55,136 nt of DNA from a virus (Duplodnaviria > Caudoviricetes). Where the stretch lies: IMG/VR virus record IMGVR_UViG_3300035199_000963, positions 1 through 55,136 of that record, one strand, 5' to 3'. Numbering within the stretch: position 1 is the first letter of the stretch; each line of letters begins with the position of its first letter. The position numbers and the translations under genes were made by a program. Below are positions 37,915 through 55,135 of the stretch, piece after piece. Below the pieces are notes generated by a model. The model saw nothing but the letters and a program-made list of their open reading frames with translations, was not told where the DNA came from and searched no databases.

Positions 37915-39609
37915 TTATGTGGTCAAATCCTCCGAGTTTGTGTTCATGGTATCATCCGATCGTGCCGGGAGCTTAGGATCTCTCGGGTGAATATATTGAT
38001 AATTATCCTCACCGTGATTAAGTTTAAGCCCTGGGATATCCCAGCTAAAGGGTCTTGTGACGTGACCTCTCCCCCTCGATCCGGGTGGGTTTGAAAATGG
38101 GTCCTGTCGCCACTGGCCGCGGGTGACCTCAAAGTGTGCCACAACATGCTCGTCATCTATCGGAATGCCTCTTCGTGTATTAATATCTTCCAACAGCTTT
38201 ACAAGAGAAGCCTCGGTCGCAGCAGTGAAGCCATGTTTGAGGTCGCCTTCGAGATCAATACCAATAGTTCTTGCGTTAGGGTTTTTATAAGGACAGTATA
38301 CCCATTTGGGGATCCCCCTCTTTTTGGCCTGTGCTTTGGCCGCCTTCGGGCAGACAGAATGGTGACCAGCCCATTTTTCTGCAACTACCTGAAATATCAC
38401 TCCTTTCTCGTCTATGATATAATGACTGGATACGTTTCTGGGCCCCCAGCCGTTAACAGTGTTTTTGGGCTTCGCCATCGTGTGGTGTAACACTATAAAG
38501 TCTATTTTGGTGCGCTCGCTAGTGTTGTGGTCAAGTAACCCTAAGAGATCATAATTCATCAACTTAGACACAGCACTAGTGTGAGTATCCAAGGAGGGTT
38601 TGCCGCCTCCACCAGATCGCGAGTAGAGAGGTACCCTGCGCAAGCGTTTTTGTTCTTTGGTCAACAGTGGAGTCTCCGGTACTACTCCCGCTGCTCCGAG
38701 AGCCTCTTCGCCAAAACCCAAGGAGGCGCCGGCTAGCAACTCTGAACACTTTTTAGATTCTTTGTGAGCATCGGATCCTTGCTTTTTGGTTTGATAGGCG
38801 CTAAATGCCAATATTGGCTGGCCGCTGCTATGTAACACAACCTCCACCATAGCGCCTTTGACACCTCCATATTCCGACATGCCGTCGGACACTTGAGGAG
38901 AAGCAACACCAGAGGTCTTGGGTGCGGGAGGATCGGTATATTGTACCTTGACTAAGGCTCCGGGGACTAAAAACTTTTGATTCTCAAAAGACTGACTGTA
39001 TGTGAACAGTGGATAAAACTTAACCATAGAATTGGCGGCGCGTTTGAGTGCCTTGGAGCTTCGATTACACAACTTTTGTGCCTCCACGTTGCCCGGGGTA
39101 ATAGGAACAGGAGGAAGAGGCTGTAGCTCGGGAATACGCACACGCACGTAACCAGAGCGGGCTGTGGCGGTATTCTCAAGCTTTGTTTTTGCACGAACCC
39201 TTGCTCTCGTCGCGGCGGAGTCGGCGCCGGCGCGGCTGGCGTCGCTTTCTTTTTCCAAAGCCTTCAACTTCGCGGCGCGCATGGCGGGAGTCGAGCCGGC
39301 TGCTGCGATGCGTGCCTGAGCGTCAGCAACCGAGGTTGGTAGAGAGTATCCGGCTGTATCCGGAGTGGTCTGACAATCTCGGCTAGACTTTACATGCTCC
39401 AGCACATATCCATAAAAAACGCGGCGTTCAGATAACTTTCCTGGCGGAGTAAGCTGTTGGTTAATAGCAGTTCGAAGAAAACCCCACTCATCTATTGTGT
39501 CACTATCCCAGGCGATGGCAGCATGTCCGAGTCCTGTGTTTAGTGGCAGAGATTCTGTGTCACTAGCAATGCCGGCACTAGTTGCCTCTTGTGAAGCTGG
39601 ATTACCCAT
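37915..39609 (-). CDS. gp5-like baseplate hub protein with C-terminal N-acetylmuramoyl-L-alanine amidase (Amidase_2)
   Basis: 564 aa. Amidase motifs IVLHHT, VSSHYIIDEKGVIFQVV, NARTIGIDLEG, VVAHFEV...QDP; N-terminal YVRVRIPE...PGALVKVQY is OB-fold-like. Confidence 0.75.
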   Translation of the reverse strand: MGNPASQEATSAGIASDTESLPLNTGLGHAAIAWDSDTIDEWGFLRTAINQQLTPPGKLSERRVFYGYVLEHVKSSRDCQTTPDTAGYSLPTSVADAQARIAAAGSTPAMRAAKLKALEKESDASRAGADSAATRARVRAKTKLENTATARSGYVRVRIPELQPLPPVPITPGNVEAQKLCNRSSKALKRAANSMVKFYPLFTYSQSFENQKFLVPGALVKVQYTDPPAPKTSGVASPQVSDGMSEYGGVKGAMVEVVLHSSGQPILAFSAYQTKKQGSDAHKESKKCSELLAGASLGFGEEALGAAGVVPETPLLTKEQKRLRRVPLYSRSGGGGKPSLDTHTSAVSKLMNYDLLGLLDHNTSERTKIDFIVLHHTMAKPKNTVNGWGPRNVSSHYIIDEKGVIFQVVAEKWAGHHSVCPKAAKAQAKKRGIPKWVYCPYKNPNARTIGIDLEGDLKHGFTAATEASLVKLLEDINTRRGIPIDDEHVVAHFEVTRGQWRQDPFSNPPGSRGRGHVTRPFSWDIPGLKLNHGEDNYQYIHPRDPKLPARSDDTMNTNSEDLTT

Positions 39610-42509: not shown

Positions 42510-42940
42510 TCTAAAAGCCCCACATAATCACTGCAAATACCAGCCAAACCTTTAAGTGCGGTGGCTTGCGTTTCTTCTGCGGAATGACATACGATAACCG
42601 ATCTCTTGCCTACTGACTTTTCAGGGTAGGTCCAAATATAACCTTTGCTTGTCAAAGTAAAGTCATCGGTCTGGTGCCAGAAACAATGCACGTCGTTTTC
42701 TACCATTCTTTCCAAGGCTTCCCGTGATTTGGCGTGGCACCAAAGTCCAGGCGTCTTTAAGAATTCTATGTCCACTTCGTGCATGGACTCATCATGTCCC
42801 AGATAAAACTTATTATCAATATACCACACATCTATCTCGCTATCATAGCCACCCTTTAGCGCCTCTTGGATATATGCCGGGCTGTTCTCTCGTGTGGGGT
42901 TGCGGCCGTGCGTATTGCCACGATGTGCAATTAAAATCAT
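42506..42940 (-). CDS. small GDPD/PI-PLC-like phosphodiesterase-fold protein
   Basis: 144 aa; LIAHRGN...ENS...GYDSEIDVW...LGHD...ICSDYV. Confidence 0.7.
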   Translation of the reverse strand: MILIAHRGNTHGRNPTRENSPAYIQEALKGGYDSEIDVWYIDNKFYLGHDESMHEVDIEFLKTPGLWCHAKSREALERMVENDVHCFWHQTDDFTLTSKGYIWTYPEKSVGKRSVIVCHSAEETQATALKGLAGICSDYVGLLE

Positions 42941-43971
42941 TTCATCTTCTCCAGAAGTTTATCACCGATATTGTAAACTTTTCCATCCATGGGAATCGAG
43001 GGAGAATGGAGGCGGTTGCGCATTTCTAGTGTTTTGATACTAGAGAATTCTTGAATATGTAAAAACAGCATTCTTTCTAAATTGATGCCGGAGGGAGTAT
43101 TCATCTCCTTGCAGAGAACAGACTCAGAGTTTTCTAATGAATCGTGCATATACTCTAGGAGTCGTGAATATTTAAACATATTTTCTGAGGAAGAGATGGC
43201 AAACTGATCATTACAAATACGTGTGGGGTCGAAATAGTGAACGGTGGTGAGTGACTCTTCATATTGCTGGAGGGGTGTGTCGCATGCCGCGGCTGACTTA
43301 GTTAGAATTGAAAGCTGGTGGGGGTCGTCTTTCATCGCTGCCACCTCCTCTTCTGTGTAGGTGCCTCCATGACCATTCGAACTGGGAACACATATTTGAT
43401 TGGGATCAATATGCTCGACGGGAATGGGATCTAAAAATATGGTATCAGGTCGAACTCGCATTACATAATCATATCTAAAGTTATTTTCTTCCTCAAATCG
43501 CCGACACAATTCATGAGATTTCATAACCGAATAGTATTGACTGTTGTAGGCGGTCGCCGTAGTCGATTGGGGATGTATAAATTTTTCTAAAACAAAGTTT
43601 TCTCGTGTTAGTTCTTTTTCCATTTGATAGTAGATGGGACTACAGGAATCCATAAAATTAACGAAATATGTCTGAAATTTCTCTACAATCTCTGGAGATG
43701 CTTCTGCCGGATATGAGTTAGCTACGGCTTTTGCGTATTTGGTATGCGTCTTGGGGGTTAGATTAGTCGCGTCTGGGTTATGTTCAAGTCTCTTCTTAAG
43801 CCACCCTGACTGTTCTACACTTGTCCAAAAATGAACAAATGAATTTACCTCATAACCCTGTTCTGCAAAAGGTACGATAATATTATTAAGAAAAGTATGT
43901 GTAGCGAAAGGATCGAGCCGTGGCTGACCCGAGAAACAAACCGCCACACGTTTACGTTTAGTCGTCGTCAT
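42937..43971 (-). CDS. putative glycosyltransferase (paralog of 50419-51300)
   Basis: VAVCFSGQPR...SQYYS...YDYVMRVRPD...NDQFAISSSENMFKY; located in the sugar cluster. Confidence 0.5.
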   Translation of the reverse strand: MTTTKRKRVAVCFSGQPRLDPFATHTFLNNIIVPFAEQGYEVNSFVHFWTSVEQSGWLKKRLEHNPDATNLTPKTHTKYAKAVANSYPAEASPEIVEKFQTYFVNFMDSCSPIYYQMEKELTRENFVLEKFIHPQSTTATAYNSQYYSVMKSHELCRRFEEENNFRYDYVMRVRPDTIFLDPIPVEHIDPNQICVPSSNGHGGTYTEEEVAAMKDDPHQLSILTKSAAACDTPLQQYEESLTTVHYFDPTRICNDQFAISSSENMFKYSRLLEYMHDSLENSESVLCKEMNTPSGINLERMLFLHIQEFSSIKTLEMRNRLHSPSIPMDGKVYNIGDKLLEKMK

Positions 43972-44882
43972 TTTATATATCCATGTTCGCGAAGCCAGTG
44001 TGAAAAGAGTGTATCGCTCTCTAAGAAGCCCACAACTTCTTTATATTGTTCCTCCTTGTGCCCACCAACCTTACCCTGGTTTGTGATATGGTACTTAGTT
44101 AATAGACTAGGTGTGTCCTTGTCTTTCTCAATGCCCTCTTTTAAGACAAACTCTGGAAGGCCGTCGACCAGCGCAAGGATCTCATCTATAAAATGAGAGG
44201 GCAATTCGTCGGGATTACCAAAAAGACTGTTGTATATCGAGCGTGCAATCTGATGTTTTTGGTCGTTGTCTCCCAAAATATAATCTTCGTAAACGAACTC
44301 ATAATCACTACGGTTTTTCCAGGTACTGTGGCAGGTGAGTTGCTCGACGGCGATGGCGCAAGGATCAATCATTTCCTCCGGACTTTGCTGCGCTTTTCTT
44401 CTACATAATGATACCACAGAGTCTCTCAAATCCCTGCGAGGTGTCAGCACCTTACAATTTGGGAGGGTAGCGGCAAGATGATGAATGATAGGGTAATACC
44501 CGTGTGTTTTTACCACCAGCGCACACTTCTCGGCGGTGTTGTCGGAAGGTCCCAAATCGAAAAAGCCGCCTTCATGGATTGTAAAAGTAGCCACGTCGTC
44601 GCTTGATTTTATTCCCAAAGAAGAATCTCCGGAGTTAATATAGGCTATCTCGGAAAGAGGCCCGTGAGACACATAATCATACTTTCGTGGAGAGACCGCT
44701 ATTAAAGCCTTAACCATATTATACAATAAAGTAGAACCTGATTGTCCCATCCCAGCTATGATCACCAGTAGCCCTTCAGGGTGTTGTGCTAAACGTGGCG
44801 CCAAATACTGCTTTACAAAAGCAATCATCTTGGCGTCGTCCGGTGCGCGTATGGGTGCTGATGGCTTGGGTATTACCTTCAT
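43968..44882 (-). CDS. sulfotransferase-family protein
   Basis: 5'-PSB-like IIAGMGQSGSTLLYN, VVKTH, 3'-PB RDLRDSVVS and YED motifs. Confidence 0.7.
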   Translation of the reverse strand: MKVIPKPSAPIRAPDDAKMIAFVKQYLAPRLAQHPEGLLVIIAGMGQSGSTLLYNMVKALIAVSPRKYDYVSHGPLSEIAYINSGDSSLGIKSSDDVATFTIHEGGFFDLGPSDNTAEKCALVVKTHGYYPIIHHLAATLPNCKVLTPRRDLRDSVVSLCRRKAQQSPEEMIDPCAIAVEQLTCHSTWKNRSDYEFVYEDYILGDNDQKHQIARSIYNSLFGNPDELPSHFIDEILALVDGLPEFVLKEGIEKDKDTPSLLTKYHITNQGKVGGHKEEQYKEVVGFLESDTLFSHWLREHGYIK

Positions 44883-45592
44883 CGGTTCTCCAAAAAGTGT
44901 TTAAGATCTTCCGGCGTCCCAATGCCCCACATCTTGTGTACATAAAATGGAATCAGCGACTGACCTTCTTCTATAAGTTCGTTATATACGGGAGCAATAT
45001 AGAATTCATTATTAACACGGATGTTCTTCTGAATCATCTTCTTTGCGTGCCTCACGAAGTCAGATCCCTTCCGATACCAGTAAATGCCACATGTGGCGAT
45101 GTTGGATATAGGCTTCTTTTCTGCAACCTGAGTGATATATCCTCGTGAATTTGTCTTTACAAACGACCATTTAGGGTGCACTGCGTTAAAAGTGAACACG
45201 ATAGCATCGGTGCTTGTTAAGTTTTTAAAGGCTTTGAAATTTTCTGCCTCATACTCAATATATTGATCCGAGTTTGCGATAAGAAGGTCTTCATCGTTAT
45301 CTATATGCTCTTCTGCCAGTAATGCGGTACAAGCCGCACCCTCCGTAAGTCCATCGACTACAACGTACTTAAACCGGTCATTGGTAATGCGGCCGAGCGT
45401 ATCCAACATTCCTTCATACTTCTGGACATGTTCTCTTCGTACCAAGAAAATGTACTCGCAATCAAAATCTAAATTCTCAACAACCGTCTGAATCATTGGC
45501 TTTCCGCCGACGTCTATTAGTGGTTTGGGGAAGGTGTATCCCTCTTTAACAAAGCGACTTCCCTCACCCGCCATAGGAATTAAAATTTTCAT
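44879..45592 (-). CDS. sugar-phosphate nucleotidyltransferase (GT-A fold)
   Basis: LIPMAGEGSRF...PKPLIDVGGKPMI...EGAACT...IANSDQ...VAEKKPIS...VNNEFYIAPVYN...GIGTPEDL. Confidence 0.85.
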   Translation of the reverse strand: MKILIPMAGEGSRFVKEGYTFPKPLIDVGGKPMIQTVVENLDFDCEYIFLVRREHVQKYEGMLDTLGRITNDRFKYVVVDGLTEGAACTALLAEEHIDNDEDLLIANSDQYIEYEAENFKAFKNLTSTDAIVFTFNAVHPKWSFVKTNSRGYITQVAEKKPISNIATCGIYWYRKGSDFVRHAKKMIQKNIRVNNEFYIAPVYNELIEEGQSLIPFYVHKMWGIGTPEDLKHFLENR

Positions 45593-46202
45593 TTATGTGA
45601 TCCTCCACTGTATTTTTTGTAACCTGTTCGGAGTTCTTTACCTCCATCACACTACACCCTGATGCGTAGGCGGACGCTAGTCCCTTAGGAGAGTCTTCGA
45701 CTATCAACGTCTCAGATGCAGTCACTTTATAGTGCTCCAGTATCTTAAGATAGCCTTCAGGGTGAGGCTTAGCCTCGTGTACATCCTGATTAGTCACCAA
45801 CATGTCAAGATGCTCATAGACCCCTGTTTTTTCAAGCATCAACGTTGCAGTCTCTCGAATGCTGTTTGTAAAGCATGCTACATTTATTGAGTTACCCTTA
45901 AGCCATGTAATAAGCTCTATTTTCTCATTGCGCTTTTTGGCTAAGCGCTCGATGATTTCGACTGTTTTCGCTTGTTTAAGTTCATTAACAAGAGGTGACT
46001 GCTCAGGAGTTAAGGTACCAGCCTCTACTAATAAATTTAGCTTAGTTTTCGTCGGGAGTCCGTTAAAAGTAGTATAGTGTTCCTCAATTGGTATCTCCCA
46101 ACCAGCCACCTCTTGTAATGCCTCGTTCAAGGCAACGCGGTGCCACTCACAAGCCTCTACCAGCACTCCATCCATGTCAAAGATTACCAGACGTAAACTC
46201 AA
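45564..46202 (-). CDS. HAD-superfamily phosphatase (subfamily IA)
   Basis: IFDMDGVL, TNS, KPHPEGY and VEDSPKG motifs; TTG start. Confidence 0.88.
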   Translation of the reverse strand: MSLRLVIFDMDGVLVEACEWHRVALNEALQEVAGWEIPIEEHYTTFNGLPTKTKLNLLVEAGTLTPEQSPLVNELKQAKTVEIIERLAKKRNEKIELITWLKGNSINVACFTNSIRETATLMLEKTGVYEHLDMLVTNQDVHEAKPHPEGYLKILEHYKVTASETLIVEDSPKGLASAYASGCSVMEVKNSEQVTKNTVEDHINENFNSYGG

Positions 46203-46918
46203 CAGATACCTCGTTTTTCATAATTTATATCGTACTCTGACAAAATGGTGTCCAATTCAGCGGGATAATCAGAAAAATTCCACTTTCCCTTGACCACAGC
46301 AGTGGCCACATACGGATAGATGGAACTGTCCCAATGAAACTGTCCTCGCTTGGCATCGGATTCGGTGAAAGCCATTGCGGTCTTAATCTGGAAATGGTTG
46401 CTAACTCGGGAAGAGTGAGCTTCGAACTCCCATATGTTATCGCCCCCAGTTTTATCGTAAATTAAGTTCAGCTTCTCTTTATTACAGAGGCTAGGCTGAA
46501 TAGCAAATTGCAAATCAGCGGGGTTATAATATAAATGGGAAGTGCCGGGGACTTGTGGTGGCAGTTTATCTGTGTAAGATGCTCTAATGAGTTTGATGAT
46601 ATCAATGTCTTCGTTTTCTATGAGCTTGGCAAACTCGTTAAGCCTGTCATGGTCAGGCTCTCCGTATAGAAACATGTCCTCATGATGAAAAAGCACTACC
46701 TCTTCAGAAACCGATTCTAGGCAGTAAGTAATCCTCTGCTGATATCTCTCCTCATCATCATACCGAATCAATTCCCAATTATCTCGCTCCAATTCTGGTG
46801 TCGACTGATCGGAGAAAAGATACTTCTTAACATCAGGCAGATATTTATCAGTCTGCCCAAACATGGCGGGCCAAACGTCCGAATAGTCAGAGTGAGAGTA
46901 AAAAATGACTGCGTACAT
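46199..46918 (-). CDS. putative glycosyltransferase-like protein
   Basis: 239 aa; VLFHHEDMFL (DxD-like), IWEFE and AVVKGKW; cluster context. Confidence 0.45.
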   Translation of the reverse strand: MYAVIFYSHSDYSDVWPAMFGQTDKYLPDVKKYLFSDQSTPELERDNWELIRYDDEERYQQRITYCLESVSEEVVLFHHEDMFLYGEPDHDRLNEFAKLIENEDIDIIKLIRASYTDKLPPQVPGTSHLYYNPADLQFAIQPSLCNKEKLNLIYDKTGGDNIWEFEAHSSRVSNHFQIKTAMAFTESDAKRGQFHWDSSIYPYVATAVVKGKWNFSDYPAELDTILSEYDINYEKRGIC

Positions 46919-46922
46919 ATTC

Positions 46923-47729
46923 CTACCCTAAGAACGCTTTGACAAAGTCCGTGTGAGCCTGTTCACCACATTCGTCCATTTGCTCAAAGAAGCTTACGGA
47001 AAGCTCTCGGTTGACTTCGTTGATGAATGGAGAAAACTTGTCGTGAACCAGTTCCTGCTTCCCATAGTGTGTCAGTTGCTCGGCCCCAGTTTCCATAATT
47101 TGGTCCCAAACCCGAGTTCCAATAGTAGGAACAGTCCCTTGGTTGCAGACTCTCTCTAGCCCATCTAGTGTACGCATACTGCCAGCAATGATTTCTGCCC
47201 CGGTATTCTTTCTCTTCTGGGCAAATGTTACATGCGCTGTGGCATCTAGTCCTTTTTCTTCCATGCGACCAGGGATTAGACTCACGTAGCGAACGTTATA
47301 GGTAAAGCAGGATAGGGCTGTAGAACAGTCGGCAACACCCGTGACATTCGTTTCCATATACTTATTAAGATCATCAACAATCTCCAGGACCGGATGATAC
47401 GGAGGAATCTTGAGTCCGAGGCGAGTCGAGCCGTCATTGAATGTGTGGATATATTGCGCCCACCGTAAAATATCGGCTGGATCCATGCCTGACCAGGGCG
47501 CTTGTACATATACAACCCCCTTATCATCTTGGCGGATTGAGGTGACCAACTCGCACAGTTTAGGTAAGTGCCCAGTCCACTGCTCAAGCCTTAGCATATC
47601 CACCTTTTTAAATGCATTTGGGTTGGTGGTTATACCTCGAACGTGTTTGCCGTCGATCGTAGATTGTACCCTATCCCAAACATTTTGTATGTAGCCTATG
47701 TCGGCAGTATCAAAAAAGAAATCAAACAT
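46923..47729 (-). CDS. divergent transaldolase / fructose-6-phosphate aldolase family protein
   Basis: FFDTAD, GITTNP, LKIP (Schiff-base Lys), TNVT, SLIPGR and AGSMR motifs; SD GAGGAG. Confidence 0.78.
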   Translation of the reverse strand: MFDFFFDTADIGYIQNVWDRVQSTIDGKHVRGITTNPNAFKKVDMLRLEQWTGHLPKLCELVTSIRQDDKGVVYVQAPWSGMDPADILRWAQYIHTFNDGSTRLGLKIPPYHPVLEIVDDLNKYMETNVTGVADCSTALSCFTYNVRYVSLIPGRMEEKGLDATAHVTFAQKRKNTGAEIIAGSMRTLDGLERVCNQGTVPTIGTRVWDQIMETGAEQLTHYGKQELVHDKFSPFINEVNRELSVSFFEQMDECGEQAHTDFVKAFLG

Positions 47730-48087
47730 ATTTTTTCTCCTCAGCTTTTAAAAGCGTGTCTTTAACGTTTTTCCAGTTTGTAAATTTTATACCTTTATCG
47801 TCGATAAAAAAATCAACATGCGGTTTACCAAATAATAGTTCATCGTAGGGTACGCGGTATTTGTCTAGCCAATCAATGACCAATTTCCCCTGATTTGCAA
47901 TAACTCTTCCTAGGTTGTTTTCGCACGTCCTCATATTACGCGCAGTGAAGATAACAATATAATAGCCTCTTTGTTTTAAGAACTCAAGCGTATCAATCGC
48001 TCCCTCTAAAGGCTTGACGTCAGCATAACTCTGTCCAGCGGACTTTGTCTCGCAGATTGTCCCATCTAGATCTACACAAATCTTCAC
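47722..48087 (-). CDS. capless HAD phosphatase, EcbF/BcbF capsule-biosynthesis type
   Basis: 121 aa; CVDLDGTIC...IFTARNMRT...WLDKYRVPYDELLFGKP...FIDDK. Confidence 0.8.
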   Translation of the reverse strand: MKICVDLDGTICETKSAGQSYADVKPLEGAIDTLEFLKQRGYYIVIFTARNMRTCENNLGRVIANQGKLVIDWLDKYRVPYDELLFGKPHVDFFIDDKGIKFTNWKNVKDTLLKAEEKKYV

Positions 48088-49034
48088 TGTTGCAATGCCT
48101 CGTTCAGTGTTTTCACGCCAGTCAAATACATGGCGAGTTGTCTATCTTCGCTATCATAGTGCCGGGAACACATCCCTATGTAGATGAGTCCCTCTATCAA
48201 TTTTGACCTTTGATCATGAAAACCTTCAAAGACTTCAGCTATTTTCTCTTTATTATTGTTAGCAAAGGATAAACCAAACTCAGTCAAGGTGGCGTCTTCT
48301 TCGATCTGGAATTGATCATAGATGATGTATTCATAGCCACCATGGTATGAGTGTACCAGCTTCGCATAATCGTACAGTGGATCACCATAAATTCCGTCTT
48401 CACCAAAGTGGCCACGTGGATCCACAAACTTCAAAACGCAAACATTGGTTTTCTGGTTAACTCCACACAATATGTTCGAAAAACACATGTCTCCGTGAAT
48501 GATGGACATCTGTTCTAGTGGAAGCAAGCGGGTGTTGATTTGCTCTTTTACATCCTCCCAGATGTGTTTAAAATTGAGATACTTGACCCCATTAAAAAGC
48601 AAGTGCTCCTTCTCGCTAATCTCTTTAAATTTTGGAAGCTTCAGGAGTTCCTTATAATATCTTTCCGTCTTCTCAATATACATGGCTTCAGCGTAAGGAC
48701 TGTAATCCTTCTGCTTCTTTGAGCCAGCGAATGATTGCAACGTTGAGGATAGTGCTTCAGCTACGCTTAGCCAGAATTGTGGGTTGAAGTCTTGATAGAC
48801 CATGTAGTCGCCCAAGTTATCATATGCGTAGTATTCAAGTTCCATCTGATGTGTTCCGCCATCGAGGGAGGATCCAATAAGTCGCGGGAAATAAACCTCG
48901 TTTGAGTTCCCTTTTATCCCCTGATAATAGGAGATCTCATCATGAAGCCGTTGTTCCTTACTCTTCTTTGTAATTGTTCCTGCTGATGCATTGATTTCAA
49001 ACGAATTATAGGCTCTCGTTATATGCTGCCTCAT
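48084..49034 (-). CDS. APH/choline-kinase-fold sugar kinase (capsule biosynthesis type)
   Basis: IIHGDMCFSNIL (Brenner motif), FVDPRG and GDPLYDYAKL. Confidence 0.75.
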   Translation of the reverse strand: MRQHITRAYNSFEINASAGTITKKSKEQRLHDEISYYQGIKGNSNEVYFPRLIGSSLDGGTHQMELEYYAYDNLGDYMVYQDFNPQFWLSVAEALSSTLQSFAGSKKQKDYSPYAEAMYIEKTERYYKELLKLPKFKEISEKEHLLFNGVKYLNFKHIWEDVKEQINTRLLPLEQMSIIHGDMCFSNILCGVNQKTNVCVLKFVDPRGHFGEDGIYGDPLYDYAKLVHSYHGGYEYIIYDQFQIEEDATLTEFGLSFANNNKEKIAEVFEGFHDQRSKLIEGLIYIGMCSRHYDSEDRQLAMYLTGVKTLNEALQQ

Positions 49035-50403
49035 ATACCTCCTCGATAGAAAGCAGAGTTAAGCCGTGATCAATGGCGAACTTATCTAAGTCGCCACCTT
49101 TTGTCATCGTGCCATCATCATTCATAATCTCACAAATAATTGTGGCCGGCTTCAAGCCAGCTAATTTTACTAGCTCCACAGACCCCTCGGTATGTCCTCG
49201 GCGTTCCTTCAGCAGCCCGGGACGGGCACGGAGCGGGAACAAGTGTCCCGGGCGTGTTAGGTCCGTAGGTACTGCCTCGTCGTCCAGTAAGACGTCTAAG
49301 GTTCGAAGGCGGTCATGGACCGACATGCCGGTTGTGGTGCCCTCAGCGGCGTCCACAGACACAGTAAACGGTGTTTCATTCCTGTCTGTGTTCTCTACTA
49401 CCATAGGGGGGATCTCTAGCCGATCCAGCATTTCCCCTGTCATAGGAACACACATCAGCCCTCTAGCGTGATTCATCGTAAAAACAAGATTATCTACCGA
49501 TGCCATCTCGGCCGCGATTACAATATCTCCCTCATTCTCTCGATCATACTCATCAATAAGAACAACAGGTTTACCCTGACGTAATTCTTCCAGAGCATTC
49601 TGTATTTTTCTACTTTTCAACATGTTTTTCTCCTTGTTTGAATTAGAATCAGTAATAAACTTGTCGACTTTTGAAGACATGGCTTTAATTTCCAGCCACT
49701 TCTTAAAGTCATCCAGATCAGTGGGTGTGTCCATGGACCTCATATCCAATATGTTATAATCACACACGATCTTATTATCGTTAATCGCCTCGTTGAATAC
49801 TGGGGAGATATAGAACTCGCCATTAACGCGGACATCATTCTCAATCATCTTTTTGGCGTAGTGAACAAAATCACTCCCCTTCCTCCAGTAAAAAGCCCCT
49901 GCTAATGCTGTGTCCGAAATTGCTTCCTTCTCGGCGACCTGTACAACGCGCCCCTCGTCGCTAACCTCAGCGTAACTCCAACTACTGTTTCCGGAGTCAT
50001 CTTTAAAGGTGAATAACATGGCATCAAAAACGCCGGTGTTTACCCTGTCTACGAAGGTTTCCGCTTCCCATAAGAAATAGTTATCGCAATTAACGATTAA
50101 GAGTTCATCATCATTGTTTATTTGGGACTCGGCTAAAAGAGCACTGCATGCCTGCCCCTCAGTTACCTCGTCAAGCACAACAATGTCACAATTGGGCACT
50201 ATGTTCCTCAGGGTGACATCCATATGATATTTTTCAATGTGTTCTTTCTGGACTATAAACACATAGTTTCCCTCAATGTTCAGTCCTTCTATGACACGTT
50301 CAATCATCGGTTTGCCCGCGACGTCGATCAAAGGTTTGGGGAGGTTATAACCTACTTCCTTAAATCTCTTACCCTCACCTGCCATCGGTATTAATATATT
50401 CAC
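49006..50403 (-). CDS. ribB: fusion: sugar nucleotidyltransferase + 3,4-dihydroxy-2-butanone-4-phosphate synthase
   Basis: N-terminal ~240 aa: LIPMAGEGKRF...PKPLIDV...DTPTDL. C-terminal ~205 aa: DRENEGD, GLMCVP, FTVSVDA..GTTTGMS..DR, RPGHLFPL, RRGHTE, ICEIMNDDG. Confidence 0.92.
   Translation of the reverse strand: MNILIPMAGEGKRFKEVGYNLPKPLIDVAGKPMIERVIEGLNIEGNYVFIVQKEHIEKYHMDVTLRNIVPNCDIVVLDEVTEGQACSALLAESQINNDDELLIVNCDNYFLWEAETFVDRVNTGVFDAMLFTFKDDSGNSSWSYAEVSDEGRVVQVAEKEAISDTALAGAFYWRKGSDFVHYAKKMIENDVRVNGEFYISPVFNEAINDNKIVCDYNILDMRSMDTPTDLDDFKKWLEIKAMSSKVDKFITDSNSNKEKNMLKSRKIQNALEELRQGKPVVLIDEYDRENEGDIVIAAEMASVDNLVFTMNHARGLMCVPMTGEMLDRLEIPPMVVENTDRNETPFTVSVDAAEGTTTGMSVHDRLRTLDVLLDDEAVPTDLTRPGHLFPLRARPGLLKERRGHTEGSVELVKLAGLKPATIICEIMNDDGTMTKGGDLDKFAIDHGLTLLSIEEVYEAAYNESL
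49621..49635 (-). promoter_or_regulatory. internal in-frame ribosome-binding site and ATG at the start of the RibB domain
   Basis: Minus strand AAGGAGaaaaacATG. The same AGGAGAAAAA signature precedes the starts at 50403, 47729 and 41545. Confidence 0.65.
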
Positions 50404-50418: not shown

Positions 50419-51300
50419 TTATTCCCAATCGGCGTGCAACGCGGCCGCCTTCTTCCACAATCCTGTATCCATCAAAAACCACTTCATCAACAAAATGCCG
50501 TTAACTGTCAAGAAAGGGGGATACCGGTGGAGATCCTTTGATCTCTCTTCTGGTGTTTTGAGCACCTCGTTGGTACGATATTGATCACGGCACGATTCTG
50601 GCCAGCCTGTGGTGGCAGCAGCCGAATAGTCACTTTCTGCTGGCAAATATTCTTTTAGCACCTTATCATAAACATGACAAAAGTGGTCCATATTTTCCGA
50701 ACTCGAATAAAACCACATGTCGGCTGGTCCCTCATTGAACAGATCCCAATACACCATGTAAAGTTGGTTCATATCCAGGCTAGGATCAAAATTAATGCAT
50801 TGGCATGCAAATGGGTTCTGCTTTCCTGGGCCGCTGGTTGCTCGGTTTATGCGCCCTAAGTCGAAACGAGCCTTAATAGCACAATCATAGGTAAAGCCAT
50901 GTTCTTCCTCATATTGCTTCTTAAGCTCAAAAGACTTCTGAGTCGAATAATATTGACTCAGCAGCCTCTCAGGACCCACATAGCCAGCGCCGTGTTTGGA
51001 TGTCATAGACCAGCTACCTAATTGTCCGTAGGGGTCCAAATCCTTTCGACTAACGTTATGTGCTTCGGCAACTTTTACAAAATCAATCTGTTCTTCCACC
51101 ATATATGATTTAGGCTGATATAGCTGCGCAACCTCCTCTTCGAGGTGCGGCTCCCAGTTGTGGTAAAATATATCTACCTCACAGTCATCTGTCGCCAGGT
51201 CGAGGATATGCTTCTTGATGTAAGCATGACCGTCGTGACCTCTTGACGTAGTATCTTTCAGTGAATCAAAGTATCCGGATAGACACAAAGCAATCTTCAT
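50419..51300 (-). CDS. putative glycosyltransferase (paralog of 42937-43971)
   Basis: KIALCLSG...SQYYS...YDCAIKARFD...ADMWFYSSSENMDHF. Confidence 0.5.
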   Translation of the reverse strand: MKIALCLSGYFDSLKDTTSRGHDGHAYIKKHILDLATDDCEVDIFYHNWEPHLEEEVAQLYQPKSYMVEEQIDFVKVAEAHNVSRKDLDPYGQLGSWSMTSKHGAGYVGPERLLSQYYSTQKSFELKKQYEEEHGFTYDCAIKARFDLGRINRATSGPGKQNPFACQCINFDPSLDMNQLYMVYWDLFNEGPADMWFYSSSENMDHFCHVYDKVLKEYLPAESDYSAAATTGWPESCRDQYRTNEVLKTPEERSKDLHRYPPFLTVNGILLMKWFLMDTGLWKKAAALHADWE

Positions 51301-51351: not shown

Positions 51352-51981
51352 TTATTCGCTAATCACTGGTATCTTTTTAAAGATATCAAACTCTGTCAAA
51401 TCACGATACGGTGGTTCTTCCGGCAAATCTTCTACATGTTCAGGGTAGTTCTGCATTAACATCAAGCCACGGCAGGCTTCCTCTGGGCTCATATACATAT
51501 TCCATCCCTCCTCAACAATATTATCTTCATGATAGGGTACGGTGCCACGGCCTTCGTATCTAGCTTTCTTATACCAATCCACAGCCTCCTTACTGTCGGT
51601 TAAGATCATACCACCCTTTCCAATCTTAAGATGTTTCTTAATATGAAAACTCAAGCACATGGTACTTTGAGGGATGTACATCTCTGAGGTGAGCCTCTTG
51701 GCTGCATCATAAATGGGGAATGGCTTAAGCTGGTATACCCCCTTCCATGCGATGTCTTCAAACTCTAGCTTGCCTCCAGCCTGCAAAATAGACTGCGGTG
51801 GGGAGAGGTAGGTTCTTTTTGGAATTATGACCTCCCTTCCCTCTATCTTGTGGTATTTGCACGCCAAAAAGATAGCGTTTGTACAGCTATTAACTGATAC
51901 TGCATAGGGCGCGCCGGTGTAGTGGGCGATCTCCTCCTCAAACATTTGAACTATCTTGTAGGGGTTATGAAGCATAAGCAT
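51352..51981 (-). CDS. short DegT/DnrJ/EryC1/StrS PLP-dependent sugar aminotransferase
   Basis: FEEEIAHYTGAPYAVSVNSCTNAI, YDAA, SFHIKKHLKIGKGGMILTD and GWNMYMS motifs. Likely start ATG 51981 or 51975 (about 208 aa). Confidence 0.8.
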   Translation of the reverse strand: MLMLHNPYKIVQMFEEEIAHYTGAPYAVSVNSCTNAIFLACKYHKIEGREVIIPKRTYLSPPQSILQAGGKLEFEDIAWKGVYQLKPFPIYDAAKRLTSEMYIPQSTMCLSFHIKKHLKIGKGGMILTDSKEAVDWYKKARYEGRGTVPYHEDNIVEEGWNMYMSPEEACRGLMLMQNYPEHVEDLPEEPPYRDLTEFDIFKKIPVISE

Positions 51982-53539
51982 TTGCCTCCCACTTGTGTAT
52001 GACGCAGAATATATTATGCTCTTCTGCCAGTTCATCAAGTGAGTGGGATGCTTTTATGACTTCGGATTCATTTCCAAAGTCAATAGGTGCGTAATCGCCC
52101 TGGAAGAGCTCTACGGAAGCTTTGCCTAGTCCAATCAGGTGATGTGTTTTCTTTATTTTCTTAAGCAATTGCATTTTGCGTGGTTGACCATAAAAAGTAT
52201 GAATTTCCATGGCAATGAGATCGATTTTGTCATATTCATCAAAATTTTCAAAAATCTCATACTCGCTTCCCTCGCAATCAACCTTGAGGTAGCTAATCCT
52301 ATCTTCGCCAGTGAGGGTAAAAATATCTTTCAATGAGATCGTTTGGCATGTCTCACCAATATCTACAAAGGATTCATTCTCGAAATCTGCACAAGTGATA
52401 TCTTTACTATGGTGGTCGTCGTGTACTCGAAGCTGTAGGGTGTCGCCGCTTTCCCCGGTTACAGCTTTTTGTATTATTTCTACATTATCAATCTTCAACT
52501 CTTCAAGCAGTCCTCTCATAATATCGCAATGTTCCTCTAGAGGCTCAAATGCATATATTTTTTTGAATACAGAATGAGCATATGCCGGAAACCCTCCCAC
52601 GTTGGCCCCGATATCAATAGCAACTCCCTGTGGGGTCTTTGACACAGGATAACTAGCCGCGCACTCCTTCAGACTATCGGTCAGCCATTCATATATTGCG
52701 TGGTGCGAAGATAAGTTGGGGAACTTAGTACTAAGGACTTGGTGGGCGCTGCGGGACGCCCACTGGGCGCTGCTCATTGTAGTATCCACTCTTTTTACGC
52801 CAGGGCGCTTAAGATATTCTTTAAAGCGCTTATTTAGAGCGAACACATTCTCAAGATCCTGCAGTTCTTCTTGCTTTCCATTTAAACAGTATTCGGTCAT
52901 GTCCGCATCGAGGCTTAAAAGCCCGCGGGCGAGGGGAATCAAATAGAACTCGTCGCCTAATCTCTCCAAGAGCGCCAATTTGCGCTCTGGTGAGTAATAC
53001 CCATGAACCTCCATGGCAAGAAATAGCACCTTATCAAAGTTCTGAAAATTCTCCAATATCTCGTACTCGCTTCCCTCACAGTCCATCTTTAAATAATGTA
53101 TCATATCGAGGTCAAGTCGTTCTAAAATATGGTCCAGACTAATCGTTTCGCACGTCTGTCCTATTTGTGTGAAATCATGTTCCGGAAGATCTAAACAAGT
53201 GACGCCTCCTGAGGAGCCGCAGGAGCCTAACTGCAGAGGAATATTCTTGCCACTTTCAGAGTGAACTGCCATGTTATAGATTTCAACATTAGAAATACCG
53301 GCCGCCTCCAGCACTTGCATAGCTACGTGATAGTTTTCCACCACCGGTTCAAAGGCATAGATTTTGTCGAAATGCTTGTGGGCGATCACGCAGAATCCAC
53401 CCACGTTCGCTCCTATATCTACCGCAGTTGGCAGAACTACGTTAGGCATAAGAGGATAAGAAGACTTGCATTCGGCAATAATCTCATTGATGTACCCGTT
53501 TAACGCCTCATCAGATTTGAAATTTTTAAACTTTTTCAT
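51965..53539 (-). CDS. tandem two-domain FkbM-family methyltransferase
   Basis: Two copies of (V/I)DIGANVGGF...IYAFEP...TISL...YLK(M/V)DCEGSEYEI...AME(V/I)H. Confidence 0.88.
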   Translation of the reverse strand: MKKFKNFKSDEALNGYINEIIAECKSSYPLMPNVVLPTAVDIGANVGGFCVIAHKHFDKIYAFEPVVENYHVAMQVLEAAGISNVEIYNMAVHSESGKNIPLQLGSCGSSGGVTCLDLPEHDFTQIGQTCETISLDHILERLDLDMIHYLKMDCEGSEYEILENFQNFDKVLFLAMEVHGYYSPERKLALLERLGDEFYLIPLARGLLSLDADMTEYCLNGKQEELQDLENVFALNKRFKEYLKRPGVKRVDTTMSSAQWASRSAHQVLSTKFPNLSSHHAIYEWLTDSLKECAASYPVSKTPQGVAIDIGANVGGFPAYAHSVFKKIYAFEPLEEHCDIMRGLLEELKIDNVEIIQKAVTGESGDTLQLRVHDDHHSKDITCADFENESFVDIGETCQTISLKDIFTLTGEDRISYLKVDCEGSEYEIFENFDEYDKIDLIAMEIHTFYGQPRKMQLLKKIKKTHHLIGLGKASVELFQGDYAPIDFGNESEVIKASHSLDELAEEHNIFCVIHKWEANAYAS

Positions 53540-54700: not shown

Positions 54701-55135
54701 CTATATTCCCTCAATTGCAAATATTTCCGCTATCTTCTCAGAAGTGTGTCCGTCACCGTAGGGGCACGGCTCGTCGGGGTCTGGAACAGGCTGTTCGTGG
54801 GCCCATGAGAAAGCTGCTGGCAGTTCATCCGGGGTGGGACACAACGTAGAGAACACTCCCATTCCTTCAACACGCTCGGTGGTCTTTCGACACACAATAC
54901 ACTTCTTTCTAAAAAATGATGACTCTTCCTGGAGTCCTCCGCTATCTGTTATGACAAAACGGCTCTGGGAAAGCAGTTTGACGAAGTCTTCGTACCCCAT
55001 GGGATCGACGACACTGACGTGGTCAAAAATATCTTTATGTTTATAAACATTTGGGTTGGGGTGGATAGGCAAAATGAATTCTAGATCTGGGTTTTGTGCA
55101 GCCAAGCTGTCAATAGTTTTAAACCAATCCTTAAT
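54701..55135 (-). CDS. wecB: UDP-N-acetylglucosamine 2-epimerase (5' part outside window)
   Basis: LPIHPNPNV, ITDSGGLQEE, RKTTERVEG and PYGDGHTSEKI motifs; frame is open to the window edge. Confidence 0.9.
   Translation of the reverse strand: MKDWFKTIDSLAAQNPDLEFILPIHPNPNVYKHKDIFDHVSVVDPMGYEDFVKLLSQSRFVITDSGGLQEESSFFRKKCIVCRKTTERVEGMGVFSTLCPTPDELPAAFSWAHEQPVPDPDEPCPYGDGHTSEKIAEIFAIEGI

What the first reader, a model, noticed from the sequence alone, without database searches (positions are those of the whole stretch)
46923..50403. Candidate new sugar pathway: nucleotidyltransferase-RibB, kinase, BcbF-like phosphatase and divergent transaldolase
Seen: four overlapping genes. No other riboflavin gene (ribA/D/E/H) or pentose-phosphate gene is in the window. 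Known: RibB converts ribulose-5-P into 3,4-dihydroxy-2-butanone-4-P (a 1-deoxy-tetrulose phosphate) plus formate. Kinase > phosphatase > nucleotidyltransferase is the activation logic of heptose pathways. From recall, BcbE/F/G-type genes occur in loci for fructosylated capsules (Pasteurella B/E, E. coli K4). Inference: RibB and the aldolase are co-opted to make an unusual ketose, deoxy or branched sugar that is then nucleotide-activated, rather than serving as riboflavin or PPP auxiliary genes.
Basis: partly seen in the sequence, partly recalled or inferred. Interest (0 to 1): 0.85.

Follow-up and report, generated by a model that had tools for sequence, protein, structure and literature searches.

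The report
Phage sugar-activation cassette fed by RibB
A cyanophage-type virus carries a tightly conserved five-enzyme gene cassette in which a riboflavin-pathway enzyme (RibB) and an odd transaldolase-like aldolase appear to feed a kinase, phosphatase and nucleotidyltransferase trio that makes an activated, probably unusual, sugar.

Summary
Window 46923-50403 (- strand) carries four overlapping genes: an NTase-RibB fusion, an APH-fold kinase, a BcbF/EcbF-type HAD phosphatase and a divergent TAL/FSA-like aldolase. The window is a 55-kb viral contig related to Synechococcus phage S-SKS1, which has the same four genes in the same order.

The cassette recurs. All five functions were present in 16 of 16 RibB-anchored viral loci and 42 of 50 TAL-anchored viral loci. 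RibB was present in 49 of those 50. At least three gene arrangements occur: NTase-RibB fused, NTase and RibB adjacent but separate, and RibB-kinase-NTase-BcbF-TAL. One locus has an NTase-BcbF fusion.

No RibA, RibH, RibE, RibD_C, SIS-isomerase or ThyA gene was found in the window, the complete S-SKS1 genome or three large related contigs. S-SKS1 has a separate canonical talC.

The kinase, phosphatase and NTase trio is homologous to the phage AfhE/AfhF UDP-arabinofuranose system and to bacterial capsule and O-antigen triads. Of 80 bacterial loci, 67 had the triad and none had RibB or the TAL-like gene.

Best reading: RibB and the TAL-like enzyme are phage-specific feeder enzymes for a nucleotide-activated unusual sugar. 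The product is unknown; a C-methyl-branched sugar made from DHBP is my inference only. This is a new variant of a known kind.

The parts
49006..50403 (-). NTase-RibB fusion gene (465 aa). The sugar-1-phosphate nucleotidyltransferase domain covers about residues 1-240 (DNA about 49684-50403). A linker follows. The DHBP synthase (RibB) domain covers about residues 266-458 (DNA about 49030-49608).
   Evidence: Pfam PF00483 plus PF00926. TIGR00506 ribB scores above its cut-off. The RibB domain aligns over its full length with solved RibB structures such as 7uez and 4p6d, E 6e-56. The NTase domain hits PDB 4evw, E 5e-12. phrog_3980 matches residues 1-461. Of the 120 listed database clusters, 118 cover at least 92% of the fusion.
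48084..49034 (-). APH/choline-kinase-fold kinase (316 aa). It is the candidate anomeric kinase for a sugar phosphate.
   Evidence: phrog_21938, E 5e-54. The alignment of 9 phage sequences keeps an invariant H180-G181-D182...N187 loop and D205. tblastn matches RB69ORF052c-type, DLP3, Maestro and Thanatos genes over residues 3-316 at about 23% identity, E about 1e-9. The AlphaFold2 model has pLDDT 85.7. Foldseek probability is 1.00 to APH enzymes, N-acetylhexosamine 1-kinase, maltokinase and methylthioribose kinase.
47722..48087 (-). BcbF/EcbF-type small HAD phosphatase (121 aa). It is the candidate phosphatase that removes the distal phosphate from a sugar bisphosphate.
   Evidence: TIGR01689 scores 87.1 bits (best family, below the cut-off of 162). 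PDB 1xpj, E 3e-22, and 9iqw 'capsule biosynthesis protein', E 6e-7. phrog_1238, E 7e-28. The N-terminal 'VDLDGT' HAD motif is visible in the sequence.
46923..47729 (-). Divergent TAL/FSA-family class I aldolase (268 aa). It belongs to a phage-specific subfamily that is always found with RibB and the kinase.
   Evidence: PF00923, 34 bits. A profile search hits transaldolases at E 1e-5. The AlphaFold2 model has pLDDT 94.5 and Foldseek probability 1.00 to TAL/FSA structures. K107, D7, N128, T130, R155, R186, Q76 and I152 are invariant in 40 rows; S184 is kept in 38. The nearest ESM-Atlas clusters are 98-100% viral.
50419..51300 (-). DUF7796-like protein (293 aa) directly upstream of the cassette. 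It is a candidate transferase that uses the product; this is inferred only.
   Evidence: phrog_13607. Six of 9 family members match PF25072 DUF7796, best E 5e-7. This family or its paralogue 42937-43971 lies within 7 kb in 29 of 50 TAL-anchored loci (my count). No relation to WavE was found by hhalign.
44879..46918 (-). Neighbouring second module: an unknown 239-aa protein (46199-46918), a beta-phosphoglucomutase-like HAD (45564-46202) and a stand-alone NTase paralogue (44879-45592). These are not part of the conserved five-function core.
   Evidence: Pfam and NCBIfam. They are present only in the closest relatives L003-L007. The NTase paralogue groups with the RibB-fused NTase domain in the tree.

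Best explanation
The four genes form a five-function phage operon that builds a nucleotide-activated, non-standard sugar for a glycan. They are not riboflavin or pentose-phosphate helpers.

Shown by homology: the RibB domain is an intact DHBP synthase, so it should convert ribulose-5-P into 3,4-dihydroxy-2-butanone-4-P (DHBP) plus formate. The kinase, the small HAD phosphatase and the NTase are homologues of the AfhE/AfhF-type trio. That trio turns a sugar carrying a distal phosphate into an NDP-sugar in three steps: phosphorylation of the anomeric hydroxyl, removal of the distal phosphate, then nucleotidyl transfer.

Inferred: RibB and the TAL/FSA-like Schiff-base aldolase act as the feeder pair that makes the distal-phosphate sugar. 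My proposal rests on DHBP being the methyl-ketone analogue of glyceraldehyde-3-P. The aldolase would add a two- or three-carbon hydroxy-carbonyl unit to the DHBP carbonyl. The product would be a C-methyl-branched pentose-5-P or hexulose-6-P. The trio would then activate it, and neighbouring DUF7796-like or other transferases would use it on a host-surface or virion glycan.

The order of steps, the identity of the sugar, the nucleotide used and the acceptor are all unknown.
For: (1) Recurrence. S-SKS1 has the same four genes in the same order. All 16 of 16 IMG/VR loci found with the fusion protein carry RibB, kinase, NTase, BcbF and TAL. Of 50 loci found independently with the TAL-like profile, 50 have the kinase, 49 have RibB (the miss, L123, starts inside the kinase at a contig end) and 42 have all five.
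(2) Rosetta-stone variation. NTase-RibB is one ORF in the window, S-SKS1, L003, L006, L007, L105 and L118. The two are adjacent but separate in L111. The order is RibB-kinase-NTase-BcbF-TAL in L008-L016. L017 has an NTase-BcbF fusion. Flanking genes differ outside the closest relatives.
(3) Not riboflavin. No RibA, RibH, RibE or RibD_C match was found in any of 5 records, including the complete 208-kb S-SKS1 genome and a 90%-complete contig.
(4) Not the pentose-phosphate talC. S-SKS1 has a separate canonical TAL (171 bits) besides the cassette copy (46.7 bits).
(5) The trio is homologous to a characterised pathway: kinase versus RB69ORF052c/DLP3-type AfhE genes, phosphatase versus 1xpj and 9iqw. 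Passages of PMC13326640 describe HY126 AfhE as an arabinose-5-P kinase plus UDP-arabinose pyrophosphorylase and AfhF as the phosphatase.
(6) Enzymes are intact. RibB catalytic-loop residues are invariant in 36 rows, and the TAL Schiff-base lysine and phosphate-site residues are conserved in 40 rows.
(7) In bacteria the trio occurs without RibB or TAL: 67 of 80 loci have the trio and 0 of 80 have RibB or TAL within 10 kb. RibB and TAL therefore behave as a separable, phage-specific add-on.
Against: No biochemical result exists for any of these proteins.

The RibB domain cannot be told apart by sequence from housekeeping RibB (about 50% identity). A simple boost of host flavin synthesis is therefore not excluded by the enzyme itself.

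Aldol addition to a ketone is unusual for TAL/FSA enzymes. This subfamily also lacks both known acid/base residues: Gln76 stands where transaldolases have Glu, and Ile152 where they have Phe and FSA-type variants have Tyr.

Eight of 50 TAL-anchored loci lack a detectable NTase or BcbF within 7 kb.

Many loci come from related phages. There are only 35 distinct RibB and 39 distinct TAL sequences, so part of the co-occurrence is shared descent.

The bacterial trio works without RibB or TAL, so the trio may simply activate a common sugar phosphate.
Confidence: 0.55

Rival explanations
1. The trio activates an ordinary sugar phosphate, for example fructose-6-P or a pentose-5-P, exactly as the bacterial triads presumably do. 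The TAL-like enzyme and RibB only adjust precursor pools and are not in-line steps.
For: Sixty-seven of 80 bacterial loci carry the trio with no RibB or TAL nearby, so no feeder is needed in principle. The TAL-like enzyme keeps the phosphate site of F6P-using enzymes.
Against: RibB has no known role in supplying a sugar phosphate. RibB is fused to the NTase in many lineages. The TAL-like subfamily is found with RibB in 49 of 50 loci and is viral-only in the Atlas. S-SKS1 already has a canonical talC.
Confidence: 0.15
2. The NTase acts directly on DHBP through its terminal phosphate and makes an NDP-linked four-carbon unit. This would resemble CDP-glycerol, CDP-ribitol or CDP-6-fructose and serve a teichoic-acid-like polymer. 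The kinase, phosphatase and aldolase would serve another step.
For: The NTase-RibB fusion would place the two activities side by side. Passages of PMC10918830 show a C. jejuni cytidylyltransferase using the non-anomeric phosphate of fructose-6-P.
Against: That enzyme belongs to the IspD family (PF01128). The NTase here is RmlA/GlmU-like (PF00483) and its nearest solved relatives are sugar-1-P enzymes. This reading leaves the strictly co-occurring kinase, phosphatase and aldolase unexplained. In many loci the NTase sits between the kinase and the phosphatase, or is fused to the phosphatase.
Confidence: 0.1
3. The activated sugar is used to hypermodify phage DNA, as the AfhE/AfhF arabinose system does, rather than to build a polysaccharide. 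This concerns the target only; the pathway is the same as in the best explanation.
For: The kinase and phosphatase are homologous to the DNA-arabinosylation enzymes of RB69, DLP3 and HY126-type phages.
Against: No ThyA-like base-hydroxylating or hydroxymethylating enzyme was found in 0 of 5 records, including complete S-SKS1. The surrounding genes are typical of polysaccharide synthesis: SDR epimerase/dehydratase, sulfotransferase-like, FkbM methyltransferases, GNAT, a DegT-like gene and UDP-GlcNAc 2-epimerase.
Confidence: 0.1
4. RibB is a riboflavin auxiliary metabolic gene and the TAL-like gene is a pentose-phosphate auxiliary gene. They merely sit next to glycan genes.
For: Both families are known housekeeping enzymes, and cyanophages commonly carry talC. 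The RibB domain looks fully canonical.
Against: Fusions and three gene arrangements are conserved across divergent phages. No other rib gene is present. S-SKS1 has a second, canonical talC. The catalytic pair of the cassette TAL is altered.
Confidence: 0.05

Closest known systems
AfhE/AfhF plus arabinose-5-P isomerase: the UDP-D-arabinofuranose pathway of phages with arabinosylated 5-hydroxycytosine (HY126, RB69, DLP3). Known to me from passages of PMC13326640.
   Same: It has the same three activities from homologous proteins: an APH-fold kinase, a small HAD phosphatase of the 1xpj/9iqw type and an RmlA-like NTase. It draws on ribulose-5-P as its carbon source and is phage-encoded.
   Different: In that system the feeder is a SIS-domain isomerase, which is absent here. 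Here the feeder is RibB plus a TAL-like aldolase. In AfhE the NTase is fused to the kinase; here it is fused to RibB or stands alone. Kinase identity is only about 23%. No ThyA-like DNA-base enzyme is present, and the neighbouring genes point to a glycan rather than to DNA.
Bacterial BcbF/EcbF-type 'capsule biosynthesis phosphatase' triads. Examples found here are Pantoea ananatis, E. coli O78 and O92 O-antigen clusters, Campylobacter, Helicobacter and Legionella.
   Same: Kinase, BcbF-type phosphatase and NTase lie side by side in 67 of 80 loci. The Pantoea phosphatase passes TIGR01689 (172.9 bits against 162), and the neighbouring 513-aa protein has an NTase-like N-terminus plus an APH-like C-terminus.
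   Different: None of the 80 loci has RibB or the TAL-like gene within 10 kb. The window phosphatase scores below the family cut-off. I found no publication naming the sugar these bacterial triads make.
ADP/GDP-heptose pathway (GmhA, HldE or HddA, GmhB, HddC).
   Same: It uses the same order of chemistry: anomeric kinase, removal of the distal phosphate by a HAD phosphatase, then nucleotidyl transfer.
   Different: The kinase fold differs; here it is APH-like. No SIS isomerase is present. Matches to HddC and GmhB models are only weak.
Housekeeping RibB (DHBP synthase) of riboflavin biosynthesis.
   Same: The domain aligns over its full length at about 50% identity and passes the curated cut-offs. 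The catalytic-loop residues are invariant.
   Different: It is fused to or adjacent to an NTase. It has no RibA, RibD, RibE or RibH partners in the phage genomes. It always sits in a glycan cassette.
Transaldolase, fructose-6-phosphate aldolase (FSA) and cyanophage TalC.
   Same: It shares the TIM-barrel fold, the Schiff-base lysine, the Asp/Asn/Thr catalytic shell and the phosphate site.
   Different: Gln stands at the transaldolase Glu position, as in FSA-type variants. Ile stands at the Phe (TAL) or Tyr (FSA-type variant) position. It has a C-terminal extension (268 aa against about 215-225). It fails the FSA equivalog model (25 bits against 246). S-SKS1 carries a canonical TalC as well.

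Membership tests
DHBP synthase (RibB; PF00926 / TIGR00506) | Full-length match above the curated cut-offs | tested here: met
   PF00926 scores 245.6 bits against 26.4. TIGR00506 scores 218.8 against 177.45. The domain aligns with 7uez and 4p6d over residues 266-458.
DHBP synthase (RibB; PF00926 / TIGR00506) | Conserved acidic loop and His/Glu catalytic motifs. The roles of these residues are recalled, not taken from a call. | tested here: met
   R288, E289, E291, D293, S349, T358, S361, D364, R365, H387, R401, H404, T405, E406 and E425 are invariant in 36 rows.
DHBP synthase (RibB; PF00926 / TIGR00506) | Works within a riboflavin pathway, with RibA, RibD, RibH and RibE partners | tested here: not met
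   No match in any of 5 phage records for PF00925, PF00885, PF00677 or PF01872. The host's own genes were not examined.
DHBP synthase (RibB; PF00926 / TIGR00506) | Converts ribulose-5-P to DHBP plus formate | not testable with these tools
   This needs an enzyme assay.
Transaldolase / FSA (PF00923) | Family HMM above its cut-off, and a TIM-barrel fold | tested here: met
   34 bits against 27. Model pLDDT is 94.5. Foldseek probability is 1.00 with TM up to 0.81 to TAL structures.
Transaldolase / FSA (PF00923) | Schiff-base lysine and phosphate-binding Arg/Ser/Arg | tested here: met
   K107, R155 and R186 are invariant and S184 is kept in 38 of 40 rows. They align with the corresponding residues of T. 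acidophilum TAL.
Transaldolase / FSA (PF00923) | General acid/base: Glu (transaldolase) or Tyr (FSA) | tested here: not met
   Q76 aligns with Glu60 of T. acidophilum TAL, and with Gln in its E60Q variant. I152 aligns with Phe132, and with Tyr in the F132Y variant. Both are invariant in 40 rows.
Transaldolase / FSA (PF00923) | FSA equivalog model TIGR00875 | tested here: not met
   25.2 bits against a cut-off of 245.95.
EcbF-BcbF capsule biosynthesis phosphatase (TIGR01689) / AfhF type | Family HMM above its cut-off | tested here: not met
   87.1 bits against 162, although it is the best-scoring family. The Pantoea homologue passes with 172.9 bits.
EcbF-BcbF capsule biosynthesis phosphatase (TIGR01689) / AfhF type | Small HAD protein similar to 1xpj and 9iqw, adjacent to an APH-like kinase and an NTase | tested here: met
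   1xpj E 3e-22 and 9iqw E 6e-7. Adjacency was seen in the window and in 67 of 80 bacterial loci.
AfhE-type sugar-phosphate anomeric kinase (APH fold) | Homology to the kinase domain of RB69ORF052c / DLP3 gp82-type proteins | tested here: met
   tblastn over residues 3-316 at about 23% identity, E about 1e-9; 278 phage records matched.
AfhE-type sugar-phosphate anomeric kinase (APH fold) | Kinase catalytic loop and metal-binding Asp | tested here: met
   H180-G181-D182, N187 and D205 are invariant in 9 sequences. The APH fold was confirmed.
AfhE-type sugar-phosphate anomeric kinase (APH fold) | Fusion to an N-terminal NTase domain | tested here: not met
   The window kinase is a stand-alone 316-aa protein. 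The NTase is fused to RibB instead.
AfhE-type sugar-phosphate anomeric kinase (APH fold) | Phosphorylates the anomeric hydroxyl of a distal-phosphate sugar | not testable with these tools
   This needs an enzyme assay.
Heptose nucleotide pathway (GmhA / HldE or HddA / GmhB / HddC) | SIS-domain isomerase feeder | tested here: not met
   No match in any of 5 records for PF01380 or PF13580.
Sugar-1-phosphate nucleotidyltransferase (PF00483) | Family HMM above its cut-off, and an N-terminal Gly-rich NTP loop | tested here: met
   40.4 bits against 21.2. 'PMAGEGKRF' is at the N-terminus. PDB 4evw, E 5e-12.

The most novel reading that the evidence does not exclude
RibB has a second natural role outside flavin synthesis. 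Its product DHBP, the methyl-ketone analogue of glyceraldehyde-3-phosphate, would be taken as the carbonyl acceptor by a phage-specific TAL/FSA-like aldolase with a remodelled active site (Gln76, Ile152). This would build a C-methyl-branched sugar phosphate: a 4-C-methyl-hexulose-6-P with a three-carbon donor, or a 3-C-methyl-pentose-5-P with a two-carbon donor. The AfhE/AfhF-like trio would then convert it into a new NDP-furanose for phage-directed glycosylation. This would be an aldolase route to branched sugars that does not depend on SAM C-methyltransferases.
Probability: 0.25. Interest if true: 0.9.

Novelty: new variant of a known kind. Interest (0 to 1): 0.72.

Why it matters
RibB is treated as a single-purpose riboflavin enzyme. 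Here it is fused to a sugar nucleotidyltransferase in well over a hundred sequence clusters from aquatic metagenomes. It is locked into a cassette with an aldolase, a kinase and a phosphatase. This points to an undescribed use of DHBP and probably to an undescribed nucleotide sugar. It also extends the recently described phage kinase/phosphatase/NTase logic for UDP-arabinofuranose from DNA modification to glycan islands of marine cyanophages. The same logic appears in widespread, unannotated bacterial capsule and O-antigen triads. S-SKS1 and its host Synechococcus WH7803 are in culture, so the pathway can be tested directly. It would also correct database labels: 'phosphoheptose isomerase' for the phosphatase and 'transaldolase' for the aldolase.

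Tried and rejected
A megablast search of the 9.7-kb region against the phage collection found nothing. Relatives are visible only at the protein level.

The idea that the 293-aa upstream protein is a WavE-family transferase was rejected. WavE is the gene most often next to the bacterial triads (18 loci). hhalign of the two families gave probability 0.13. Instead, 6 of 9 members match DUF7796.

The kinase has no sequence relative in the PDB, either by phmmer or by profile (only kinase-loop matches at E about 0.08). Its fold came from the model.

I considered whether the NTase is related to the C. jejuni HS5.18 fructose-6-P cytidylyltransferase. That enzyme belongs to a different family, IspD.

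The C. jejuni papers read as passages name HS1.08 as the fructose transferase and L-sorbose as the HS:19 decoration. They do not describe a kinase/phosphatase/NTase route. A review read as passages calls KfoE a fructosyltransferase on the basis of a deletion. I could not check whether the K4 locus holds the triad.

Literature searches found no study of this cassette. 'S-SKS1' with 'dihydroxy-2-butanone' gave 0 papers. In the search for 'dihydroxy-2-butanone', phage, nucleotidyltransferase and 'auxiliary metabolic', none of the 15 listed papers contained the compound name. A search for BcbF/EcbF/KfoD returned only unrelated acronyms. The primary AfhE/AfhF paper is not in the library, so that biochemistry is known to me only through passages of PMC13326640. 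Supplementary files were not opened.

No bacterial copy of the RibB plus TAL pair was seen, but only kinase-anchored bacterial loci were examined.

Full report
WHAT IS THERE. The window is a 55,136-base IMG/VR virus record with CheckV completeness 37%. All long ORFs lie on the minus strand. At 46923-50403 there are four ORFs that overlap by 29, 4 and 8 nt.

The first ORF (49006-50403, 465 aa) combines a sugar-1-phosphate nucleotidyltransferase domain with a DHBP synthase (RibB) domain. The RibB domain passes both the Pfam cut-off and the NCBIfam ribB equivalog_domain cut-off. It aligns over residues 266-458 with solved RibB structures at E 6e-56.

The second ORF (48084-49034) is barely seen by Pfam (APH, 19 bits). 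It keeps an invariant HGD...N catalytic loop and a downstream Asp in nine phage homologues. Its AlphaFold2 model has pLDDT 85.7. The model falls in the aminoglycoside/choline-kinase fold, together with the anomeric sugar kinases NahK, maltokinase and methylthioribose kinase.

The third ORF (47722-48087) is a 121-aa HAD protein. Its best family is TIGR01689 EcbF-BcbF 'capsule biosynthesis phosphatase', below the cut-off. Its nearest solved relatives are 1xpj (E 3e-22) and 9iqw 'capsule biosynthesis protein'.

The fourth ORF (46923-47729) is a weak but genuine TAL/FSA family member. Its model has pLDDT 94.5 and superposes on transaldolases.

IT RECURS, IN SEVERAL ARRANGEMENTS. The only cultured phage with the fusion is Synechococcus phage S-SKS1 (39.5% identity over the full length). 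There the same four genes follow each other in the same order. They are annotated as DHBP synthase, hypothetical protein, 'phosphoheptose isomerase' and transaldolase.

A scan of IMG/VR with the fusion protein returned 16 loci, and all 16 carry RibB, kinase, NTase, BcbF-type phosphatase and the TAL-like gene. A second, independent scan anchored on the TAL-like profile returned 50 loci; some lie on the same contigs as the first set. Fifty of 50 have the kinase. Forty-nine of 50 have RibB, and the one miss begins inside the kinase at a contig end. Forty-two of 50 have all five functions. These loci are not all independent, because they hold only 35 distinct RibB and 39 distinct TAL sequences.

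The arrangements differ. NTase-RibB is a single ORF in the window, S-SKS1, L003, L006, L007, L105 and L118. NTase and RibB are adjacent separate genes in L111. The order is RibB, kinase, NTase, phosphatase, TAL in L008-L016. L017 has an NTase-phosphatase fusion. Outside the closest relatives, the flanking genes shared with the window are only generic glycan genes.

In the protein database, 118 of the 120 best clusters cover at least 92% of the fusion. They come mostly from aquatic metagenome sources.

IT IS NOT A RIBOFLAVIN OR PENTOSE-PHOSPHATE HELPER. I searched five records: the window, the complete 208-kb S-SKS1 genome, a 90%-complete 159-kb contig and two further large contigs. There was no match to RibA, RibH, RibE or RibD_C. 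The same searches hit 10 to 14 of the 14 control genomes.

S-SKS1 encodes two TAL_FSA proteins. One is a canonical 226-residue copy (171 bits) and the other is the cassette copy (46.7 bits). The cassette copy is thus a specialised paralogue. The nearest ESM-Atlas clusters of the TAL-like protein are 98-100% viral.

THE TRIO IS A KNOWN KIND OF SUGAR-ACTIVATION MODULE. The window kinase matches the RB69ORF052c-type genes of Mosigvirus phages, DLP3, Maestro and Thanatos over its whole length, at about 23% identity and E about 1e-9.

Passages of PMC13326640 describe these proteins. HY126 AfhE and its RB69 and DLP3 counterparts have an NTase N-domain and an APH-like kinase C-domain. They are reported to phosphorylate arabinose-5-P and to form UDP-arabinose. 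AfhF is a HAD phosphatase whose models resemble 1xpj. It removes the 5-phosphate between those two steps. An arabinose-5-P isomerase supplies the substrate from ribulose-5-P.

The same trio is widespread in bacteria. A kinase-profile scan of one genome per species gave 80 loci, of which 67 have kinase, BcbF-type phosphatase and NTase together. They include Campylobacter, Helicobacter, Legionella, Pantoea, Photobacterium and Xenorhabdus. The E. coli O92 and O78 O-antigen clusters also carry it. In Pantoea the phosphatase passes the EcbF-BcbF model. Its neighbour is a 513-aa protein with an NTase-like N-terminus and an APH-like C-terminus, which is the AfhE architecture.

None of the 80 bacterial loci has RibB or the TAL-like gene within 10 kb. 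No SIS isomerase is present in the five phage records. The picture is a conserved activation trio whose substrate is set by a changeable feeder. In these phages the feeder is RibB plus the TAL-like enzyme.

THE TWO FEEDER ENZYMES. The RibB domain looks fully functional. The acidic loop (R288, E289, E291, D293), the two His-containing motifs (H387; R401, H404, T405, E406) and E425 are invariant in 36 rows. The roles of these residues are recalled from the RibB literature, not taken from a call.

The TAL-like protein keeps the Schiff-base lysine (K107) and the Asp/Asn/Thr shell (D7, N128, T130). It also keeps the phosphate-binding Arg/Ser/Arg (R155, S184, R186). Two positions stand out. Where T. 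acidophilum transaldolase has Glu60, the phage enzyme has an invariant Gln76. Where it has Phe132, the phage enzyme has an invariant Ile152. The HMMER alignments to the wild-type enzyme and to its E60Q/F132Y variant show this directly. The variant titles appear. From recall, Gln and Tyr at these positions are the FSA signature. The phage subfamily therefore has the FSA-like Gln but neither known acid/base residue, which suggests altered chemistry around the bond-forming carbons.

MECHANISM: WHAT IS SHOWN AND WHAT IS INFERRED. Three things are shown by homology and context. RibB should yield DHBP. The trio should carry a distal-phosphate sugar through a bisphosphate and a 1-phosphate (or a 2-phosphate for a ketose) to an NDP-sugar. 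All five genes behave as one unit.

The rest is inferred. DHBP (CH3-CO-CHOH-CH2OP) is the methyl-ketone analogue of glyceraldehyde-3-P (OHC-CHOH-CH2OP), the normal acceptor of TAL/FSA enzymes. The conserved phosphate site fits DHBP bound in the acceptor position. Adding a dihydroxyacetone unit would give a 4-C-methyl-hexulose-6-P. Adding a glycolaldehyde unit would give a 3-C-methyl-pentose-5-P. Either product can close to a furanose with a free anomeric hydroxyl and a distal phosphate, which is the substrate type of the AfhE/AfhF-like trio.

I put about 0.55 on the general model and about 0.25 on this specific chemistry. Aldol addition to a ketone is unusual for this family. Other orders of steps, such as phosphatase first or RibB acting on the aldolase product, are not excluded.

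WHICH NTASE? A maximum-likelihood tree of 44 NTase sequences gives three groups. The first group (support 95/83) holds the RibB-fused domains. It also holds the NTase after TAL in unfused loci, the stand-alone window paralogue at 44879-45592, and two C. jejuni genes. The second is a long-branch group holding the NTase between kinase and phosphatase in unfused loci and the L017 NTase-phosphatase fusion. The third holds the bacterial triad NTases. Some cassettes have only the first type (S-SKS1) and some only the second (L011, L013, L014). One NTase of either type therefore seems to be enough.

TARGET OF THE SUGAR. The surrounding genes are typical of glycan synthesis. They include an SDR epimerase/dehydratase, a sulfotransferase-like protein, a double FkbM methyltransferase, a GNAT, a DegT-like protein and the end of a UDP-GlcNAc 2-epimerase. 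A DUF7796-like protein lies directly upstream. It or its paralogue is present near 29 of 50 TAL-anchored loci. No ThyA-like enzyme is present. A glycan on the host surface or on the virion is therefore more likely than DNA modification, but this is context only. The island adjoins baseplate and giant structural genes.

NOVELTY. The genes have been public in S-SKS1 for years under misleading names. My searches found no study of the cassette. The activation logic is known. The RibB plus TAL-like feeder, and hence the product, appear to be undescribed. I rate this a new variant of a known kind.

Noticed in passing
window 44879-46202 (-); L091 2013-4773; phage hits: A second two-gene module pairs a beta-phosphoglucomutase-like HAD with a stand-alone NTase. 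It recurs in cyanomyophages (S-CAM9, S-PRM1, S-8S53, B3/B23; NTase 47-49% identical) and in C. jejuni GP013 (HAD 41% and NTase 46% identical). This suggests a mutase plus NTase route to another NDP-sugar.
   Followed up: partly
window 50419-51300 and 42937-43971 (-); L059, L081, L091 and other bacterial loci: DUF7796-like proteins accompany the cassette in phages (29 of 50 loci). They also sit next to the kinase/phosphatase/NTase triad in Campylobacter-type loci (13 proteins in 9 loci). They are candidates for the transferase that uses the product.
   Followed up: partly
L002 14377-14733 (S-SKS1 SWZG_00040); phrog_1238: The 'phosphoheptose isomerase' label in S-SKS1 and in PHROGs sits on a small HAD phosphatase of the BcbF/AfhF type. 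No SIS domain exists anywhere in that genome. This is probably an annotation error that has spread.
   Followed up: yes
L099 (E. coli MLI104K2, O92-type cluster) and L150 (E. coli ATCC 43896, O78 cluster): E. coli O92 and O78 O-antigen clusters contain an AfhE/AfhF-like triad annotated as hypothetical proteins, next to a WavE-family gene. From recall, the published O78 repeat has no unusual sugar. An acid-labile furanose side branch may therefore have been missed.
   Followed up: no
L017 8912-10021: A single 369-aa ORF joins the NTase and the BcbF-type phosphatase. It is a third kind of fusion within the trio, besides NTase-kinase (AfhE) and NTase-RibB.
   Followed up: partly
window 12269-25702, 29486-36904, 6623-11272 (-): Three giant ORFs of 4477, 2472 and 1549 aa lie beside a baseplate-wedge homologue (27192-28988) and an endolysin-domain protein (37915-39609). 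Seven of the 10 left-hand proteins tested, the 1549-aa giant among them, have no PHROG match. The 4477- and 2472-aa ORFs were not scanned.
   Followed up: partly
window 51352-52038 (-): A 228-aa protein matches only about 75 residues of the DegT/PseC aminotransferase N-terminus, yet is conserved at 68-77% identity in relatives. It overlaps the following double FkbM methyltransferase gene by 74 nt.
   Followed up: no
window 54701-55135 (-): The C-terminal part of a UDP-N-acetylglucosamine 2-epimerase is cut by the end of the contig. The glycan island therefore continues beyond the window.
   Followed up: no
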